From Escherichia phage vB_EcoM_ECO78, in sequence record PP526941.1: a stretch of DNA of 64,000 bases. The stretch is one strand, 5' to 3'. A program made the position numbers and the translations under genes. Shown one piece after another: positions 12,665-49,737 of this stretch. Positions within the stretch are counted from its first letter, which is position 1. Each line of letters opens with the position of its first letter. Under the pieces are notes generated by a model, which had not been told where the DNA came from, searched no databases, and worked only from the letters and a program-made list of their open reading frames with translations.

Positions 12665-15600
12665 ATGGCCGAGATTAAAAGAAAGTTCAGAGCAGAAGAT
12701 GGTCTGGACGCAGGTGGTGATAAAATAATCAACGTAGCTTTAGCTGATCGTACCGTAGGAACTGACGGTGTTAACGTTGATTACTTAATTCAAGAAAACA
12801 CAGTTCAACAATATGATCCAACTCGTGGATATTTAAAAGATTTTGTAATCATTTATGATAACCGCTTTTGGGCTGCTATAAATGATATTCCAAAACCAGC
12901 AGGAGCTTTTAATAGCGGACGCTGGAGAGCATTACGTACGGACGCAAACTGGATTACAGTCTCATCTGGTTCATATCAATTAAAATCCGGTGAAGCTATT
13001 TCGGTTAACACTGCAGCTGGTAATGACATCACGTTTACTTTACCATCTTCTCCAATTGATGGTGATACTATCGTTCTCCAAGATATTGGAGGAAAACCTG
13101 GAGTTAACCAAGTTTTAATTGTAGCTCCAGTGCAAAGTATTGTAAACTTCAGAGGTGAACAAGTACGTTCAGTACTAATGACTCATCCAAAGTCACAGCT
13201 AGTTTTAATTTTTAGTAATCGTCTGTGGCAAATGTATGTTGCTGATTATAGTAGAGAAGCTATAGTTGTAACACCAGCGAATACTTATCAAGCGCAATCA
13301 AATGATTTTATCGTACGTAGATTTACTTCTGCTGCACCGATAAATATTAAACTTCCACGATTTGCTAATCATGGCGATATTATTAATTTCGTTGATTTAG
13401 ATAAACTAAATCCACTTTATCATACAATTGTTACTACATACGATGAAACGACTTCAGTACAAGAAGTTGGAACTCATTCCATTGAAGGCCGTACAACGAT
13501 TGACGGTTTCTTGATGTTTGATGATAATGAGAAATTGTGGAGATTGTTTGACGGGGATAGTAAAGCGCGTTTACGTATCATAACGACTAATTCTAATATT
13601 CGTCCAAATGAAGAAGTTATGGTATTTGGTGCGAATAACGGAACAGCTCAGACAATTGAGCTTAAGCTTCCAACTAATATTTCTGTTGGTGATACTGTTA
13701 AAATTTCCATGAATTACATGAGAAAAGGACAAACAGTTAAAATCAAAGCTGCTGATGAAGATAAAATTGCTTCTTCAGTTCAATTGCTGCAATTCCCAAA
13801 ACGCTCAGAATATCCACCTGAAGCTGAATGGGTTACAGTCCAAGAATTAGTTTTTAATGGTGAAACTAATTATGTTCCAGTTTTAGAGCTTGCTTATATA
13901 GAAGATTCTGATGGAAAATACTGGGTTGTACAGCAAAATGTTCCAACCGTAGAAAGAGTTGATTCTTTGAATGATTCTACTAGAGCAAGATTAGGCGTAA
14001 TTGCTTTAGCTACACAAGCCCAAGCTAATGTCGATTTAGAAAATTCTCCGCAAAAAGAATTAGCAATTACTCCAGAAACATTAGCTAACCGTACTGCTAC
14101 TGAAACTCGCAGAGGTATTGCAAGAATAGCAACTACTGCTCAAGTGAATCAGAACACCACATTCTCTTTTGCTGACGATATTATCATCACTCCTAAAAAG
14201 CTGAATGAAAGAACTGCTACAGAAACTCGCAGAGGTGTTGCTGAAATTGCTACGCAACAGGAAACTAATGCAGGAACCGATGATACTACAATCATCACTC
14301 CTAAAAAGCTTCAAGCTCGTCAAGGTTCTGAATCATTATCTGGTATCGTAACTTTTGTATCTACTGCAGGTGCTACTCCAGCTTCTAGCCGTGAATTAAA
14401 TGGTACGAATGTTTATAATAAAAACACTAATAATTTAGTTGTTTCACCTAAAGCTTTGGATCAGTATAAAGCTACTCCAACACAGCAAGGTGCAGTAATT
14501 TTAGCAGTTGAAAGTGAAGTAATTGCTGGACAAAGTCAGGAAGGATGGGCAAATGCAGTTGTAACGCCAGAAACGTTACATAAAAAGACATCAACTGATG
14601 GAAGAATTGGTTTAATTGAAATTGCTACGCAAAGTGAAGTTAATACAGGAACTGATTATACTCGTGCAGTCACTCCTAAAACTTTAAATGACCGTAGAGC
14701 AACTGAAAGTTTAAGTGGTATAGCTGAAATTGCTACACAAGTTGAATTCGACGCAGGCGTCGACGATACTCGTATCTCTACACCATTAAAAATTAAAACC
14801 AGATTTAATAGTACTGATCGTACTTCTGTTGTTGCTCTATCTGGATTAGTTGAATCAGGAACTCTCTGGGACCATTATACCCTTAATATTCTTGAAGCAA
14901 ATGAGACACAACGTGGTACACTTCGTGTAGCTACACAAGTTGAAGCTGCTGCAGGAACATTAGATAATGTTTTAATAACTCCTAAAAAGCTTTTAGGTAC
15001 TAAATCTACCGAATCGCAAGAAGGTGTTATTAAAGTTGCAACACAGTCTGAAACTGTGACTGGAACGTCAGCAAATACTGCTGTATCTCCAAAAAATTTA
15101 AAGTGGATTGTGCAGAGTGAACCAACATGGGCTGCTACTACGGCGATAAGAGGGTTTGTTAAAACTTCATCTGGTTCAATTACATTCGTTGGTAATGATA
15201 CAGTCGGTTCTACACAGGACTTAGAGTTATACGAGAAAAATAATTATGCAGTATCACCATATGAATTAAACCGCGTACTTGCTAACTATTTGCCATTGAA
15301 AGCAAAAGCTGCAGATAGTAATTTATTGGATGGTCTAGATTCATCTCAGTTCATTCGTAGGGATATTGCCCAGACAGTTAATGGTTCACTAACCTTAACC
15401 CAACAAACGAATCTGAGTGCCCCTCTTGTATCATCTAGTACTGCTACGTTTGGTGGTTCAGTTTCGGCAAATAGTACATTAACTATTTCTAACTCTGGAA
15501 CAGCAACTCGTCTGATTTTTGAGAAAGGACCTCAAACTGGAACTAATCCAGCGCAGACGATGACTATCAGAGTTTGGGGAAATCAGTTTGGCGGCGGATC

Positions 15601-16542: not shown

Positions 16543-17658
16543 ATGGAAAAATTTATGGCAGAGTTTGGACAAGGATATGTCCAAACGCCGTTTTTATCGG
16601 AAAGCAATTCAGTAAGATATAAAATAAGCATAGCGGGTTCTTGCCCGCTTTCTACTGCAGGGCCATACGTTAAATTTCAAGATAATCCTGTAGGAAGTCA
16701 AACATTTAGCGCAGGTCTTCATTTAAGAGTTTTTGATCCTTCCACAGGAGCATTAGTTGATAGTAAGTCATATGCTTTTTCTACTTCAAATGATACTACA
16801 TCAGCTGCTTTTGTTAGTTTCATGAATTCTTTGACGAATAATCGAATTGTTGCTATATTAACTAACGGAAAGGTTAATTTTCCTCCTGAAGTAGTATCTT
16901 GGTTAAGAACCGCCGGAACGTCTGCTTTTCCATCTGATTCTATATTGTCAAGATTCGACGTATCATATGCTGCTTTTTATACTTCTTCTAAAAGAGCTAT
17001 CGCATTAGAGCATGTTAAACTGAGTAATAGAAAAAGCACAGATGATTATCAAACTATTTTAGATGTAGTATTTGACAGTTTAGAAGATGTCGGAGCTACA
17101 GGATTTCCAAGAAGAACGTATGAAAGCGTTGAGCAATTTATGTCAGCTGTTGGTGGAACTAATAACGAAATTGCGCGTCTACCAACTTCAGCTGCTATAA
17201 GTAAATTATCTGATTATAATTTAATTCCTGGTGATGTTCTTTATCTTAAAGCTCAGTTATATGCTGATGCTGATTTACTTGCACTTGGAACTACGAATAT
17301 ATCCATTCGATTTTATAATGCATCAAATGGATATATTTCCTCGACACATGCTGAATTTACTGGGCAAGCTGGGTCATGGGAATTAAAGGAAGATTATGTA
17401 GTTGTTCCAGAAAACGCAGTAGGATTTACGATATACGCACAGAGAACTGCACAAGCTGGCCAAGGTGGCATGAGAAATTTAAGCTTTTCTGAAGTATCAA
17501 GAAATGGCGGCATTTCAAAACCCGCTGAATTTGGCGTCAACGGTATTCGAGTTAATTATATCTGTGAATCTGCTTCACCTCCGGATATAATGGTACTTCC
17601 TACACAAGCATCGTCTAAAACTGGTAAAGTGTTTGGGCAAGAATTTAGAGAAGTATAA
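16543..17658 (+). CDS. 35: long tail fibre hinge connector gp35
   Basis: 371 aa immediately after gene 34. Confidence 0.9.
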   Translation: MEKFMAEFGQGYVQTPFLSESNSVRYKISIAGSCPLSTAGPYVKFQDNPVGSQTFSAGLHLRVFDPSTGALVDSKSYAFSTSNDTTSAAFVSFMNSLTNNRIVAILTNGKVNFPPEVVSWLRTAGTSAFPSDSILSRFDVSYAAFYTSSKRAIALEHVKLSNRKSTDDYQTILDVVFDSLEDVGATGFPRRTYESVEQFMSAVGGTNNEIARLPTSAAISKLSDYNLIPGDVLYLKAQLYADADLLALGTTNISIRFYNASNGYISSTHAEFTGQAGSWELKEDYVVVPENAVGFTIYAQRTAQAGQGGMRNLSFSEVSRNGGISKPAEFGVNGIRVNYICESASPPDIMVLPTQASSKTGKVFGQEFREV

Positions 17659-17720: not shown

Positions 17721-18383
17721 ATGGCTGATTTAAAAGTAGGTTCAACAACCGGGGGCTCTGTCATTTGGCATCAAGGAAATTTTCCATTGAATCCAGCCGG
17801 TGACGATGTACTCTATAAATCATTTAAAATATATTCAGAATATAATAAACCACAAGCTGCTGATAACGATTTCGTTTCTAAAGCTAATGGTGGTACTTAC
17901 GCCGCGACTGTTCGATTTAATGGAGGCGTACATGTTCCTACTATAGGTAGTAGTCAACAGTGTGGTGTTTATCCAGGTAACGGTGATGCAGCTACTTTTG
18001 CTATGGCAAATATTGACATCGTTTCGTGGAATGGTATTGGTTTTAAATCATCACAAGGTTCAGCAGACCGAACTGTTGTAATTAACGCTCGTACCGGTGA
18101 TATCAGCAGTAAGGGCGGTTTTTATGCAACTGGTCCTGTCCGTTCTAACGCTACTGCTCCGGTTGCAGCAAATGACCTTACTAGAAAGGACTATGTTGAT
18201 GGAGCAATAAATACTGTTACGGAAAATGCGAACTCTAGAGTGTTACGATCTGGCGACACTATGACGGGTAACTTAACCGCACCAAATTTTTTCTCGCAGA
18301 ATCCTGCGTCTCAACCTTCACACGTTCCACGATTTGACCAAATCGTAATTAAGGATTCTGTTCAAGATTTCGGCTATTATTAA
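17721..18383 (+). CDS. 36: long tail fibre distal connector gp36
   Basis: 220 aa, [27 protein letters not shown]... Confidence 0.9.
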
Positions 18384-23131: not shown

Positions 23132-23162
23132 TTTTGAATAAATATCCTTAAAAGGAGGGTCT

Positions 23163-23819
23163 ATGGCAGCACCTAGAATATCATTTTCGCCCTCTGATAT
23201 TCTGTTGGGTGTTCTAGATCGCTTGTTCAAAGATAACGCTACCGGGAAGGTTCTTGCTTCCCGGGTAGCTGTCGTAATTCTTTTGTTTATGATGGCGATT
23301 GTTTGGTATAGGGGAGATAGTTTCTTTGAGTACTATAAGCAATCAAAGTATGAAACATACAGTGAAATTATTGAAAAGGAAAGAAATGCACGCTTTGAAT
23401 CTGTCGCCCTGGAACAACTCCAGATAGTTCATATATCATCTGAGGCAGACTTTAGTGCGGTGTATTCTTTCCGCCCTAAAAACTTAAACTATTTTGTTGA
23501 TATTATAGCATATGAAGGAAAATTACCTTCAACAATAAGTGAAAAATCACTTGGAGGATATCCTGTTGATAAAACTATGGATGAATATACAGTTCATTTA
23601 AATGGACGTCATTATTATTCCAACTCAAAATTTGCTTTTTTACCAACTAAAAAGCCTACTCCTGAAATAAATTACATGTACAGTTGTCCATATTTTAATT
23701 TGGATAATATCTATGCTGGAACGATAACCATGTACTGGTATAGAAATGATCATATAAGTAATGACCGCCTTGAATCAATATGTTCTCAGGCGGCCAGAAT
23801 ATTAGGAAGGGCTAAATAA
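23163..23819 (+). CDS. t: holin
   Basis: 218 aa with one N-terminal TM segment and a large periplasmic domain, as in T4 holin T. Confidence 0.9.
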   Translation: MAAPRISFSPSDILLGVLDRLFKDNATGKVLASRVAVVILLFMMAIVWYRGDSFFEYYKQSKYETYSEIIEKERNARFESVALEQLQIVHISSEADFSAVYSFRPKNLNYFVDIIAYEGKLPSTISEKSLGGYPVDKTMDEYTVHLNGRHYYSNSKFAFLPTKKPTPEINYMYSCPYFNLDNIYAGTITMYWYRNDHISNDRLESICSQAARILGRAK

Positions 23820-47521: not shown

Positions 47522-47731
47522 TTAAATTACATGATTATTTATAATAAATTCTTGCGGAACGTTAAAATAACCAATTTTAGTTAATATAACAACATCACCA
47601 TTAATAATTACCGGAGAATAATCTTCTGGAGCATTAAATTTCCAATGGGCTCTAATATTATATCCGTCAGAACCAAATGCTCGACTAGCCGGTCTCCCAG
47701 CTTTTTGCCATGCATAAAAATCAAATTTCAT
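47522..47731 (-). CDS. hypothetical protein (soc.1 position)
   Basis: 69 aa. Confidence 0.4.
   Translation of the reverse strand: MKFDFYAWQKAGRPASRAFGSDGYNIRAHWKFNAPEDYSPVIINGDVVILTKIGYFNVPQEFIINNHVI
47536..47543 (-). promoter_or_regulatory. late promoter TATAAATA for soc
   Basis: Exact TATAAATA on the minus strand about 30 nt upstream of the soc ATG. Confidence 0.5.
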
Positions 47732-47922
47732 TTTGAATGCTCTATAATTAATTTTAAAGCTTCTTCACTGACAAAAATTTCGTCAGGACCTTCTATAATT
47801 TCAACCATACGAAGTTGATTAGTTAAGAGCTCACACACGAGCTCTTTGTTATAATCTTTAAATAGCTGGTCAATACGTTTCTTATGGGCTTTCTTAAGCT
47901 GACGTTTATTTAAACGAGCCAT
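47728..47922 (-). CDS. hypothetical protein (soc.2 position)
   Basis: 64 aa. Confidence 0.4.
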   Translation of the reverse strand: MARLNKRQLKKAHKKRIDQLFKDYNKELVCELLTNQLRMVEIIEGPDEIFVSEEALKLIIEHSK

Positions 47923-48440
47923 TAATAGCCTCGGTCTTGACGAGCGAAGTTTTCAGCATTTTTCAGATAATAAAGTTTAAAGATTTCTTCAGCTGACATT
48001 CCAAGAGCAATGAATTTATTCATGAAAAAGTGAAACTGGTCAATCAGTTCAAATTTAATTTCAAGCTGATCTTCAGGAGATAAATCTTGAATTTTCTTGG
48101 ATTGCATTTCAGAATAACGTTTCTTCCAAGGTTTCCATACAGCAGAAGCTTCTTTTTCGCCATTACTCATACCACCAAGAGAAGTATATAGCTCGCGAGT
48201 TTCGTCTGCGATATAATCGTCTTGGTTTCGCAGCCAAGCAAGAACTTCTCCTGCAGTTTCAAGTGAATCGGGATGACGATTTGTTTCTGGTTTATCATTA
48301 GCCAAACGAATCTGTAAATGCCGCTGCATATCAAGCATAACCTGCAGTGGGTCAATATTGTGCATAATATTCTCAGCATATGCACGATTTGCTTTATCAA
48401 CACCTTCGATCAAATGAGCACATTCATTAAAGTAAGCCAT
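47922..48440 (-). CDS. 56: dCTPase/dUTPase gp56 (MazG-like)
   Basis: Track ORF has a 31-aa hydrophobic extension; T4-like start MAYFNECAHLIEGVDKANRAYAENIMH at 48440 with SD AGGA. Confidence 0.8.
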   Translation of the reverse strand: MAYFNECAHLIEGVDKANRAYAENIMHNIDPLQVMLDMQRHLQIRLANDKPETNRHPDSLETAGEVLAWLRNQDDYIADETRELYTSLGGMSNGEKEASAVWKPWKKRYSEMQSKKIQDLSPEDQLEIKFELIDQFHFFMNKFIALGMSAEEIFKLYYLKNAENFARQDRGY

Positions 48441-48511
48441 TATTTTTCCTTTCAATTCATGGGTTAGTAGATTAATTATACAATAAATATATAAAGCAAT
48501 AAGGAGGATAT

Positions 48512-48712
48512 ATGGTACAAAAATTAATGGCACTTGTTAATGCCATAAAAGGTAATAAAAAACGTATAGCTTTTACTATTTCTGCTATGATAGGAATTTT
48601 ACTCTGGAATTTTGTTTTATCACCAATTGCTATTGCTCATGGTGTTAATATTCCAGTAATTACTCTTGATACATTCGTAGATTTAGCATTTGCTTTGGTT
48701 GGGTTAATTTAA
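48512..48712 (+). CDS. hypothetical small membrane protein on the opposite strand
   Basis: 66 aa, hydrophobic (ISAMIGILLWNFVLSPIAIAHGVNIPVI); strong SD AAGGAGG 4 nt before ATG; stop codon overlaps the gene 61 stop inside TTTAAA. Confidence 0.4.
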   Translation: MVQKLMALVNAIKGNKKRIAFTISAMIGILLWNFVLSPIAIAHGVNIPVITLDTFVDLAFALVGLI

Positions 48713-49737
48713 ATCTTAGCATATTTAGATAGCCGCATTTTAGCCATCAACCCCTGGGCAATATTATTTTTCATATATTCCATAATTTGTTCAGGGGCTG
48801 CACCTTCCTTTCTAATCATATCATTAACATCTTTTGATTTCCAGGGAGATTTATCCCAAAACATAACCCTTTCTCCTGCATCAACTAATTTAGTCATTCG
48901 TTTAATAGTGTCAGGGTGACGAGGTTCATTATCTAAGACCCACACGCGTCTATCTTTAAATGGAACAACTTCTAGGTCTAATTGACCACCAGTAATAGCT
49001 ATACCATTTTCAATAAAAAGTGAATCTATAGGTCCTTCTAGAACATATACATCACCATCTTTGACTCGTTCAACTCCATAGATTTTTGTTGCCTCAGGAT
49101 AAGCTTTGATGGTGATATATTTTTGAGGAGCATCTTTCTTTAATGCACGTCCTTGAAAAGACTCAGCTTTTCCATTAGCATTATAAATTGGAATAACAAG
49201 ACGAGGCTCAGGTATTTCCTTTTTATATGTTCCCGGTGCTATGCTATTAACTAATTTAGGCCATTCAGTTGTAAACCAAAGATATTTCCATTTATCCTTT
49301 GGAATACAACGAGCTTTTACATATTTTATAATTGGATGGTCTTCCGCCAGTTTATCTAATCTAATACATGACGGAAGAGATTTAATTATTTTCTTCTCAG
49401 GTTGTTTAGGAAGTTCTTTAGGTTTTTCTACTGGCCGACTTTTACCTTTTTCTTTTCTTATTTCAAAGATATACTCACGATATAAATCAGGTTCAAACTC
49501 CTTTAAATATATTCCGATTGGTGCATGATAGTTACAGTTATAACAATGAATATTTCCTTCATTATTATCACCATAATACCATCCACGAGCTTTATTCTGG
49601 TCGGTTTTTGAATCTCCACAAACAGGGCATCTAAACCGTAATTTAAAAGTTGAACTATTATTTACTTGTGTGAATTTAGGTAAATGAGCTAATGCACGAT
49701 ATGCAAACTCATTATCAATCCAAGGTATTGATGACAT
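48709..49737 (-). CDS. 61: DNA primase gp61
   Basis: 342 aa; N-terminal zinc ribbon (CPVCGDS...CYNC) and TOPRIM region. Confidence 0.9.
   Translation of the reverse strand: MSSIPWIDNEFAYRALAHLPKFTQVNNSSTFKLRFRCPVCGDSKTDQNKARGWYYGDNNEGNIHCYNCNYHAPIGIYLKEFEPDLYREYIFEIRKEKGKSRPVEKPKELPKQPEKKIIKSLPSCIRLDKLAEDHPIIKYVKARCIPKDKWKYLWFTTEWPKLVNSIAPGTYKKEIPEPRLVIPIYNANGKAESFQGRALKKDAPQKYITIKAYPEATKIYGVERVKDGDVYVLEGPIDSLFIENGIAITGGQLDLEVVPFKDRRVWVLDNEPRHPDTIKRMTKLVDAGERVMFWDKSPWKSKDVNDMIRKEGAAPEQIMEYMKNNIAQGLMAKMRLSKYAKI

What the first reader, a model, noticed from the sequence alone, without database searches (positions are those of the whole stretch)
48441..48712. Opposite-strand small membrane ORF where T4 carries dam; no dam or segF around gene 56
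Between gene 56 and the end of gene 61 there are only about 270 bp. They hold a 66-aa hydrophobic plus-strand ORF with a near-consensus SD, convergent with gene 61, and the two stop codons overlap within TTTAAA. From memory, T4 (and T2) carry dam between 56 and 61, and T4 carries segF between soc and 56; both are absent here. A plus-strand gene inside a long minus-strand early block is unusual and may be a moron-like acquisition. The lack of dam fits a T6-like lineage, which I recall lacks Dam. If the ORF is not expressed, the region may instead be regulatory or origin-like.
Basis: partly seen in the sequence, partly recalled or inferred. Interest (0 to 1): 0.55.

Follow-up and report, generated by a model that had tools for sequence, protein, structure and literature searches.

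The report
Conserved small late membrane-protein gene
The small opposite-strand gene next to the primase gene is real, but it is an old feature of T4-type phages that T4 itself also carries unannotated, not a newcomer replacing dam, and its function is unknown.

Summary
A 66-codon plus-strand ORF (48512-48712) with an AAGGAGG ribosome-binding site lies between gene 56 and gene 61. Its stop overlaps the gene 61 stop, and dam and segF are absent.

The interpretation does not hold. T4 has the same ORF intact and unannotated at 17738-17938, between dam and gene 61. So do T2, T6, RB69 (RB69ORF029w), RB32 and JS98, and at least eight genera of T4-like phages in all. It is always 63-66 codons, convergent with the primase gene, with a 4-nt stop overlap. 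It belongs to PHROG 2024 (unknown function). The variable elements are dam and the other genes inserted between it and gene 56.

Coding is well supported:
- dN/dS is 0.2-0.3 within the genus.
- Synonymous sites are saturated between genera while the frame stays open.
- Variable sites fall 8/3/14 by codon position.

A T4 late-promoter box (AATAAATA) lies 22 nt before the ATG. Holin gene t in this window has the same variant at similar spacing, and two other genera have a perfect TATAAATA.

The product is predicted to be an N-in, single-pass inner-membrane protein. No homologue has a known function.

The 71-bp spacer also holds the MotA-type promoter of gene 56, which matches T4's oriA primer promoter.

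Verdict: an ordinary, already catalogued gene of unknown function. Interest is low.

The parts
48512..48712 (+). 66-codon ORF plus stop; small membrane protein of family PHROG 2024 / RB69ORF029w
   Evidence: phrog_2024 E 8e-31. dN/dS is 0.2-0.3. Variable sites by codon position are 8/3/14. The identical protein is deposited as 'hypothetical protein'.
48501..48507 (+). Shine-Dalgarno AAGGAGG, 4 nt before the ATG
   Evidence: AGGAGG/AGGAGA is kept in all genera compared.
48482..48489 (+). T4 late-promoter-type box AATAAATA (A at -13 variant); inferred transcript start near 48495
   Evidence: An NATAAATA box ends 15-22 nt before the ATG in 24 of 25 loci, and is a perfect TATAAATA in Marfa and Kosakonia 305. 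The same variant and similar spacing precede holin t at 23137. A(-13) is the commonest variant among T4 late sites (PMC2988020). Activity is inferred, not shown.
48709..48712 (.). 4-nt overlap (TTAA) of the convergent stop codons of the ORF and gene 61
   Evidence: The same 4-nt overlap is seen in RB69, ST0, VR25, JS98, Moon, Kosakonia 305 and Marfa.
48494..48500 (-). MotA box ATTGCTT of the middle promoter of gene 56
   Evidence: The heptamer is identical to the one annotated as the mot-box of P(M)16.53 in T4 record X01416.
48475..48480 (-). -10 hexamer TATAAT of the same middle promoter, 13 nt after the MotA box; the late box lies inside this spacer on the other strand
   Evidence: T4 has ATTGCTT, 14 nt, TATAAT.
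47922..48440 (-). Gene 56 (dCTPase), left neighbour
48709..49737 (-). Gene 61 (DNA primase), convergent right neighbour
48527..48546 (-). Terminator-like hairpin with a U-run on the gene 61 strand, inside codons 6-12 of the ORF
   Evidence: dG -8.9 kcal/mol, z -2.1. The sequence is identical in T4. It is absent in RB69 and JS98. Function is uncertain.
47522..47922 (-). Two small ORFs (69 and 64 aa) of the soc.1/soc.2 type, in the place of T4 segF
   Evidence: The name soc.2 comes from the Shfl2 annotation. segF is a free-standing homing endonuclease inserted between soc and 56 (PMC2988022).

Best explanation
The ORF is a genuine, vertically inherited gene of the T-even phage group. It is not an acquisition. 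It sits tail-to-tail with the primase gene.

The gap between it and gene 56 is a hot spot where different phages carry extra genes: dam in T4 and T2, MazG-like genes or a homing endonuclease elsewhere. This window has the common, uninterrupted form.

Expression (inferred): the gene is most likely transcribed late in infection by gp55-RNA polymerase from the AATAAATA box at 48482-48489. The start would be near 48495, giving a leader of about 17 nt. It is translated from a strong ribosome-binding site.

Product (predicted): a 7-kDa protein with a basic cytoplasmic N-terminal helix, one transmembrane helix (about residues 16-42), and a short hydrophobic tail of about 23 residues at the periplasmic face. 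The conserved signature W-N-x4-P-x-A-x3-G-x3-P-x-V lies in the outer half of the membrane helix and the loop. This suggests it acts by contacting a membrane or periplasmic partner.

What is shown: existence, conservation, purifying selection, promoter and ribosome-binding-site motifs, and predicted topology.

What is inferred: late timing, membrane insertion and the mode of action.

My best guess for the role is a non-essential accessory in late envelope events such as lysis timing, lysis inhibition or membrane integrity. I put that at about 0.2. The biological role itself remains unknown.

No plus-strand terminator follows the ORF. Its transcript must therefore run antisense into gene 61, which may be a secondary effect.
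For: - Presence in T4, T2 and T6, RB69 and RB32, where it is annotated ORF029w/030w, ST0 and VR25, JS98, and Moon, Kosakonia and Marfa.
- 692 plus 140 phage records by tblastn. 115 database clusters, all 41-73 aa (nearly all 62-69); the long contigs among them are 160-175 kb T4-like genomes.
- Selection: dN/dS is 0.20-0.30 among window, T4, T2, T6 and PP01. Between genera pS is 0.56-0.82 against pN 0.33-0.55, with the frame intact. Variable sites by codon position are 8/3/14. GC by codon position is 0.44/0.32/0.14.
- Late promoter: NATAAATA ends 15-22 nt before the ATG in 24 of 25 loci, including a perfect TATAAATA in two genera.
- The 64-kb window has only 15 NATAAATA sites. Six are followed by a ribosome-binding site and ATG: genes 34, 36, t and soc, this ORF, and one unidentified site.
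- The A(-13) variant accounts for 9 of 50 listed T4 late sites, and late transcripts run in both directions (PMC2988020).
- Topology: 4-7 Lys/Arg before the hydrophobic core and 0-1 after it in all nine members examined. AlphaFold gives H2-12, H16-42 and H52-63 at pLDDT 76-80.
- No RNA structure signal on the plus strand, z -0.68. No plus-strand terminator before 52943.
Against: - No direct expression data were found. The T4 omics paper examined (PMC9697503) does not mention antisense or unannotated features. No paper in the library names the ORF.
- The promoter box never has the consensus T at -13 in Tequatro-, Mosig-, Gapriver- or Dhakavirus, and Moon has only TATTAAATA. The promoter may therefore be weak.
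- The gene is dispensable at least sometimes. The T6 record has ATT for the start codon. Truncated, frameshifted or internally deleted variants exist. CC31 lacks it at this locus.
- There is no functional homologue in Pfam, NCBIfam, PADLOC, PDB or BFVD. The proposed role is a guess.
Confidence: 0.8

Rival explanations
1. One reading: the ORF is a moron-like, recently acquired plus-strand gene that occupies the place of dam in a T6-like lineage.
For: It has its own promoter-like box and runs against the surrounding genes. All 21 CDSs in the matching 7.1 kb of PP01 are on the minus strand. Its GC is slightly low, 0.294 against 0.355 for the window.
Against: - T4 and T2 have dam and the ORF side by side.
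- The ORF is syntenic and keeps the same stop overlap in at least eight genera.
- Its divergence tracks that of the phages: 90-100% within Tequatrovirus and about 50% to Mosig- and Gaprivervirus.
- No terminator flanks it.
- No homologue was found outside T4-like phages.
Confidence: 0.03
2. The stretch is not protein-coding. It is conserved because it carries the 3' end or terminator of gene 61 transcripts and promoters for dam or gene 56. The open frame would be incidental.
For: - A minus-strand hairpin with a U-run lies at 48546-48527.
- The gene 56 middle promoter lies in the spacer.
- T4 record X01416 annotates an early promoter, P(E)17.40, just upstream of the ORF start on the other strand.
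Against: - The hairpin is confined to Tequatrovirus.
- The frame is kept open over 63-66 codons at saturated synonymous divergence, with a third-position excess and low dN/dS.
- A tandem paralogue exists in Gaprivervirus.
- Invariant residues W32, N33 and P38 hold across 28 diverse members.
- The plus-strand fold is no better than shuffled sequence.
Confidence: 0.05
3. The main function is RNA-level. The late plus-strand transcript reads antisense through gene 61 and shuts down primase mRNA late in infection. The small ORF would mainly stabilise or couple that transcript.
For: - There is no plus-strand terminator for more than 4 kb after the ORF.
- The convergent 4-nt overlap with gene 61 is invariant across genera.
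Against: - The amino-acid sequence itself is under selection, and a paralogue was retained. An RNA-only role would not need this.
- No transcript data exist.
- The stop overlap may persist simply because any indel would change one of the two C-termini.
Confidence: 0.12
4. The protein is a holin or pinholin-type lysis protein, as one UniRef entry labels a homologue.
For: - It is small, hydrophobic and probably late.
- It has the same AATAAATA box and similar spacing as holin gene t in this window.
- The homologue in phage OE5505 is named 'Holin' by UniRef and BFVD.
Against: - There is no match to any Pfam holin family.
- The C-terminus is hydrophobic and acidic with no basic tail, 0 Lys/Arg.
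- The C-terminal helix has only 12 helical residues (52-63) in the models.
- It is not next to an endolysin or spanin gene.
- From established knowledge, T4 lysis is accounted for by T, E, RI, RIII and the PseT.3/PseT.2 spanins.
- The 'Holin' label stands alone among more than 100 entries named 'hypothetical'.
Confidence: 0.05

Closest known systems
RB69ORF029w / RB32ORF030w; PHROG 2024 (unknown function)
   Same: Same family, with E 8e-31 to the PHROG profile. Same length, same strand and same position convergent with gene 61. The identical protein is already deposited from other Tequatrovirus genomes.
   Different: Nothing of substance. This is another copy. The family has never been given a function, and it is missing from the T4 and JS98 reference annotations.
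T4 late genes with a TATAAATA-type promoter, such as soc, t, 34 and 36
   Same: An NATAAATA box, then 15-22 nt containing a strong ribosome-binding site, then the ATG. Holin t in this window has the same AATAAATA variant.
   Different: Promoter activity has not been demonstrated. The first base is A, G or C rather than T in four genera. The gene lies alone inside an early/middle block and is convergent with an early gene.
Class II holins and pinholins (for example lambdoid S21)
   Same: Small size, hydrophobic character and probable late expression.
   Different: No sequence or profile similarity. No charged C-terminal tail. The second hydrophobic segment is too short to span the membrane in several members. 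It is not in a lysis cassette.
Morons of temperate phages
   Same: A single small gene with its own promoter, oriented against its neighbours.
   Different: No terminator. Distribution is conserved and syntenic rather than sporadic. The host is a virulent phage.
T4 dam / segF variable cassettes at the soc-56-61 locus
   Same: The same neighbourhood. The window shows the cassette-free alleles.
   Different: dam and segF are optional insertions. Dam of T4 type is in 182 records against about 500 carrying the ORF. segF is a homing endonuclease. The ORF is the constant element.

Membership tests
PHROG 2024 / RB69ORF029w family | Significant full-length match to the family profile | tested here: met
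   E 8.2e-31, residues 2-66 against profile positions 1-65 of 65. 48-54% identity to Mosig- and Gaprivervirus members.
PHROG 2024 / RB69ORF029w family | Position on the plus strand, convergent with primase gene 61, with overlapping stops | tested here: met
   Window. RB69, RB32, ST0, VR25, JS98, Moon, Kosakonia and Marfa.
T4 late gene | 8-bp TATAAATA-type box about 10 bp upstream of the start site, with no -35 element required | tested here: met
   AATAAATA at 48482-48489, the A(-13) variant seen at 9 of 50 T4 late sites (PMC2988020). The box is conserved in 24 of 25 loci.
T4 late gene | Transcription dependent on gp55, gp33 and gp45, appearing after DNA replication begins | not testable with these tools
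   No transcript data are available. No paper was found that covers this ORF.
Holin | At least one transmembrane domain | tested here: met
   Hydrophobic core at residues 23-41, mean Kyte-Doolittle 2.0. Helix 16-42 in the models.
Holin | Hydrophilic, highly charged (basic) C-terminal domain | tested here: not met
   The C-terminal 25 residues have 0 Lys/Arg and 2 Asp, and the protein ends in LVGLI.
Holin | Match to a known holin family, or a place in a lysis cassette next to an endolysin or spanin gene | tested here: not met
   No Pfam or NCBIfam hit. The neighbours are dCTPase and primase.
Holin | Forms lethal membrane lesions that release endolysin | not testable with these tools
   This needs expression experiments.
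Moron | Sporadic presence among otherwise collinear relatives | tested here: not met
   Present at the same site in 692 plus 140 records across at least eight genera. Absent at the locus in CC31 only, among the genomes inspected.
Moron | Autonomous unit with its own promoter and terminator | tested here: not met
   A promoter-like box is present, but no plus-strand terminator was found before 52943.
Moron | Base composition unlike the surrounding genome | tested here: inconclusive
   GC is 0.294 against 0.355 for the window and 0.31-0.38 for neighbouring genes. This is a small difference for a 201-bp gene.
Dam methyltransferase locus (T4 type) | A dam gene between 56 and 61 | tested here: not met
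   No tblastn match in the whole window, best E 2.6. The 268-bp gap holds only this ORF.
Type I toxin-antitoxin-like small hydrophobic toxin | Small hydrophobic peptide controlled by a dedicated overlapping antisense RNA | tested here: inconclusive
   The peptide is small and hydrophobic. Read-through transcripts from gene 61 would be antisense to it, but no dedicated small RNA, fold signal or Rfam-type element was examined beyond.

The most novel reading that the evidence does not exclude
The best-studied virulent phage, T4, carries an unannotated late gene that is conserved across the enterobacterial T4-like genera. It encodes a 7-kDa inner-membrane protein with a real but unrecognised role in late envelope biology: lysis timing or lysis inhibition, membrane-attached prohead assembly, or protection of the infected cell. 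Its read-through transcript may also damp primase expression by antisense pairing. In dam-less phages such as this one, its late promoter is interleaved with the oriA-type middle promoter of gene 56. Occupancy of one would then exclude the other, giving a middle-to-late switch.
Probability: 0.25. Interest if true: 0.5.

Novelty: already known. Interest (0 to 1): 0.22.

Why it matters
For this window it matters little. The gene is a routine, already deposited 'hypothetical protein', and the lack of dam and segF is the common allele of a known variable locus.

Two modest points of wider use follow:
- The T4 (NC_000866 / AF158101) and JS98 reference annotations omit a gene that comparative evidence strongly supports. 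Studies built on those annotations, such as omics or knock-down screens, would not report it.
- A conserved, probably late, small membrane protein of unknown function in T-even phages is a cheap target for a knock-out experiment.

Tried and rejected
- **Remote homology.** Pfam, NCBIfam and PADLOC gave no hits. A profile search of 1.84 billion representative proteins found only 6 clusters, all the same family. A PDB sequence profile search gave nothing below E 2.
- **Paralogues in the window.** None were found.
- **RNA structure reading.** The plus-strand fold has z -0.68. The minus-strand hairpin is not conserved beyond Tequatrovirus.
- **Literature.** Searches for the peptide sequence, the PHROG number, the RB69/RB32 locus names, T4 Ribo-seq or transcription-start mapping, and T6 Dam status found nothing on this ORF. 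The Miller 2003 T4 genome review is not held.
- **Annotations rejected as evidence.** The label 'putative head morphogenesis protein' in the T2 and T6 records is unreliable. Those records also call soc a 'terminase small subunit' and gene 56 'ferredoxin'. The single UniRef 'Holin' label is unsupported.

Full report
**1. What is in the window**

- Gene 56 (dCTPase) is 47922-48440 on the minus strand. Gene 61 (primase) is 48709-49737 on the minus strand.
- They are separated by 268 bp.
- This gap holds a plus-strand ORF at 48512-48712 (ATG start, 66 codons). AAGGAGG lies at 48501-48507, before the start.
- The ORF's TAA (48710-48712) overlaps the complement of the gene 61 stop (48709-48711).
- tblastn with T4 Dam and T4 SegF finds nothing in the 64-kb window.
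- The segF position holds two small minus-strand ORFs (47522-47731 and 47728-47922), as in T2 and T6.
- The window is a Tequatrovirus. This 1.1-kb stretch is 98% identical to Ec_MI-02, ECP2301 and PP01.

**2. The ORF is not a substitute for dam**

- T4 has dam at 16846-17625 and gene 61 from 17935. The 309 bp between them are unannotated in both NC_000866 and AF158101.
- That gap contains the same ORF at 17738-17938 (+). It is 92% identical in protein and has the same 4-nt overlap with gene 61.
- T2 has dam, a further 181-codon ORF, and then the small ORF. T6 has the dam-less layout of this window.
- The ORF has been annotated since the RB69 genome as RB69ORF029w, and in RB32 as ORF030w.
- It matches PHROG 2024, unknown function, at E 8e-31.
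- The exact protein of this window is deposited many times as 'hypothetical protein'. The exact T4 version has no NCBI protein accession.

**3. Breadth of the family**

- tblastn finds the ORF in 692 phage records: about 500 at 90% identity or more (Tequatrovirus) and 189 below 60% (Mosigvirus, Gaprivervirus).
- A second subtype was recognised first as the tandem downstream gene VR25_032 in Gaprivervirus. It is the only copy in JS98, at 15343-15543 and unannotated.
- That subtype occurs in 140 more records from Dhakavirus and from Klebsiella, Enterobacter, Pectobacterium, Salmonella, Kosakonia, Edwardsiella and Citrobacter T4-like phages.
- In Moon, Kosakonia 305 and Marfa it is again 63-66 codons, on the plus strand, and overlaps the primase stop by 4 nt.
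- CC31 lacks it at this site and has a minus-strand MazG-like gene instead.
- Profile searches of very large protein collections find only this family, in T4-like phage contigs.
- The constant element is therefore the ORF-primase pair. The variable element is whatever lies between the ORF and gene 56: nothing here, dam in T4, dam plus another ORF in T2, and MazG-like genes or a homing endonuclease elsewhere.
- T4-type Dam occurs in 182 records against about 500 carrying the ORF at 90% identity or more. The dam-less state seen here is thus the majority.
- segF is a free-standing homing endonuclease (PMC2988022). Its absence is ordinary.

**4. Is it coding?**

- Within Tequatrovirus dN/dS is 0.20-0.30, and the replacements seen are conservative (I/V, A/T).
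- Between genera synonymous sites are at or near saturation (pS 0.56-0.82) while pN is 0.33-0.55. The frame stays open at 63-66 codons.
- Among 11 distinct Tequatrovirus sequences, variable sites number 8, 3 and 14 at codon positions 1, 2 and 3.
- GC by codon position is 0.44/0.32/0.14.
- W32, N33 and P38 are invariant, and A40, G44, P48 and V50 nearly so, across 28 diverse members.
- A retained tandem paralogue also argues for a protein function.
- The plus-strand RNA folds no better than shuffled sequence, z -0.68.
- I conclude that the ORF is a real gene.

**5. Expression signals**

- The box AATAAATA lies at 48482-48489, 22 nt before the ATG.
- Every first-in-line copy in 25 loci except Moon has an NATAAATA box ending 15-22 nt before its ATG. 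The forms are AATAAATA (dam-less Tequatrovirus, Mosigvirus, JS98), GATAAATA (T4, T2), CATAAATA (Gaprivervirus) and a perfect TATAAATA (Marfa, Kosakonia 305).
- The review of T4 late transcription states that late promoters are an 8-bp TATA box. Of 50 listed sites, 32 are perfect and 9 have A at -13. Late transcripts run in either direction (PMC2988020).
- As an internal control, the window has only 15 NATAAATA sites. Six are followed within 40 nt by a ribosome-binding site and an ATG. These precede gene 34, gene 36, holin t (also AATAAATA, 18 nt before its ATG), soc, this ORF and one unidentified site.
- Late transcription is therefore the best-supported reading, but it remains an inference. 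No transcript or proteome evidence for this ORF was found in the library.
- No plus-strand terminator follows before 52943. A late transcript would therefore continue antisense into gene 61.

**6. The protein**

- All members have 4-7 Lys/Arg before the hydrophobic core and 0-1 after it.
- AlphaFold models from 9- and 28-sequence alignments (pLDDT 76 and 80) both give a short N-terminal helix (2-12), a long helix (16-42), a loop (43-51) and a short C-terminal helix (52-63).
- In the Moon- and Kosakonia-type members the C-terminal segment is too short to cross a membrane.
- The likely topology is N-in, one transmembrane helix, with a short hydrophobic tail at the periplasmic face.
- The conserved signature (WN, P, A, G, P, V) sits in the outer half of the helix and in the loop.
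- No functional relative was found in any sequence or fold library.
- The one 'Holin' label, for phage OE5505 in UniRef, is unsupported. The protein lacks the charged C-terminal tail and the lysis-cassette context.
- The gene can be lost or damaged. The T6 record has ATT for the start codon. Truncated, frameshifted and internally deleted variants exist. It is therefore probably non-essential.

**7. The spacer**

- Read on the minus strand, 48500-48475 is ATTGCTT, 13 nt, TATAAT, followed by the ribosome-binding site and start of gene 56.
- T4 record X01416 annotates ATTGCTT as the mot-box and TATAAT as the -10 of P(M)16.53, 14 nt apart, in front of gene 69/56.
- The T4 genome record places oriA there and describes its primer as the gene 56 transcript.
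- In this dam-less phage the plus-strand late box lies exactly inside the spacer of that middle promoter.
- A minus-strand hairpin with a U-run at 48546-48527 (dG -8.9 kcal/mol, z -2.1) could end some gene 61 transcripts. It is identical in T4 but absent in other genera.

**8. Verdict**

- The interpretation as an acquired gene replacing dam is not supported.
- The feature is a known, catalogued, conserved gene of unknown function. It is most likely a late, small inner-membrane protein.
- The only mildly noteworthy point is its omission from the T4 and JS98 reference annotations.
- Interest is low.

Noticed in passing
L003:3239-3439 (T4 NC_000866 17738-17938, +); L022:5344-5544 (JS98 15343-15543, +): The T4 and JS98 reference records leave this conserved 66-codon ORF unannotated. 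The exact T4 protein has no NCBI accession in the 15-billion-protein collection.
   Followed up: yes
window 48475-48500, both strands: The plus-strand late box AATAAATA (48482-48489) sits inside the 13-nt spacer between the MotA box ATTGCTT and the -10 TATAAT of the minus-strand middle promoter of gene 56. That promoter is the counterpart of T4 P(M)16.53 / the oriA primer promoter. In T4 the two are about 1 kb apart because of dam.
   Followed up: partly
L004:2501-2503 (T6 AP018814): In this T6 record the ORF's start codon is ATT instead of ATG. The annotators began the CDS at Met6, far from the ribosome-binding site. It could be a laboratory-strain loss or a rare start codon.
   Followed up: partly
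L007:2495-2901 (VR25); also L017, L018, L021: Gaprivervirus carries both subtypes of the family in tandem on the plus strand. Only the first copy has a late-type box. The second follows 8 nt later with its own GGTGGA ribosome-binding site.
   Followed up: partly
window 48527-48546 (-): A hairpin of 8 pairs with a 4-nt loop, followed by UAAUUUUUGU, lies on the gene 61 strand, 163 nt past the gene 61 stop and inside codons 6-12 of the ORF. It is identical in T4 and absent from RB69 and JS98. It may be a weak terminator of gene 61 transcripts.
   Followed up: partly
window 23137-23165 (+): Holin gene t (23163-23819) is preceded by the same non-consensus late box AATAAATA as the small ORF, at similar spacing.
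   Followed up: partly
window 47522-47922 (-): Two small ORFs (69 and 64 aa, soc.1/soc.2 type) occupy the site where T4 has the homing endonuclease gene segF. T2 and T6 have the same arrangement.
   Followed up: partly
L005:1865-2410 (T2), L023:7821-8105 (CC31), L026:523-1457 (Kosakonia 305), L027:371-1472 (Marfa), L025:671-1441 (Moon): The interval between gene 56 and the small ORF is an insertion hot spot. It holds dam, a 181-aa ORF, MazG-like pyrophosphohydrolase genes, a homing endonuclease, or other small ORFs, depending on the phage.
   Followed up: partly
window 31106 (-): Another AATAAATA box is followed by a GC-rich hairpin (AGGGGCTTCGGCCCCT), a T-run, and then a ribosome-binding site and ATG. 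The gene was not identified.
   Followed up: no
L004 and L005 annotation tables (T6 AP018814, T2 AP018813): Product names in these two records look unreliable. For example, soc is called 'terminase small subunit' and gene 56 'ferredoxin'. Their label 'putative head morphogenesis protein' for the small ORF therefore carries no weight.
   Followed up: yes
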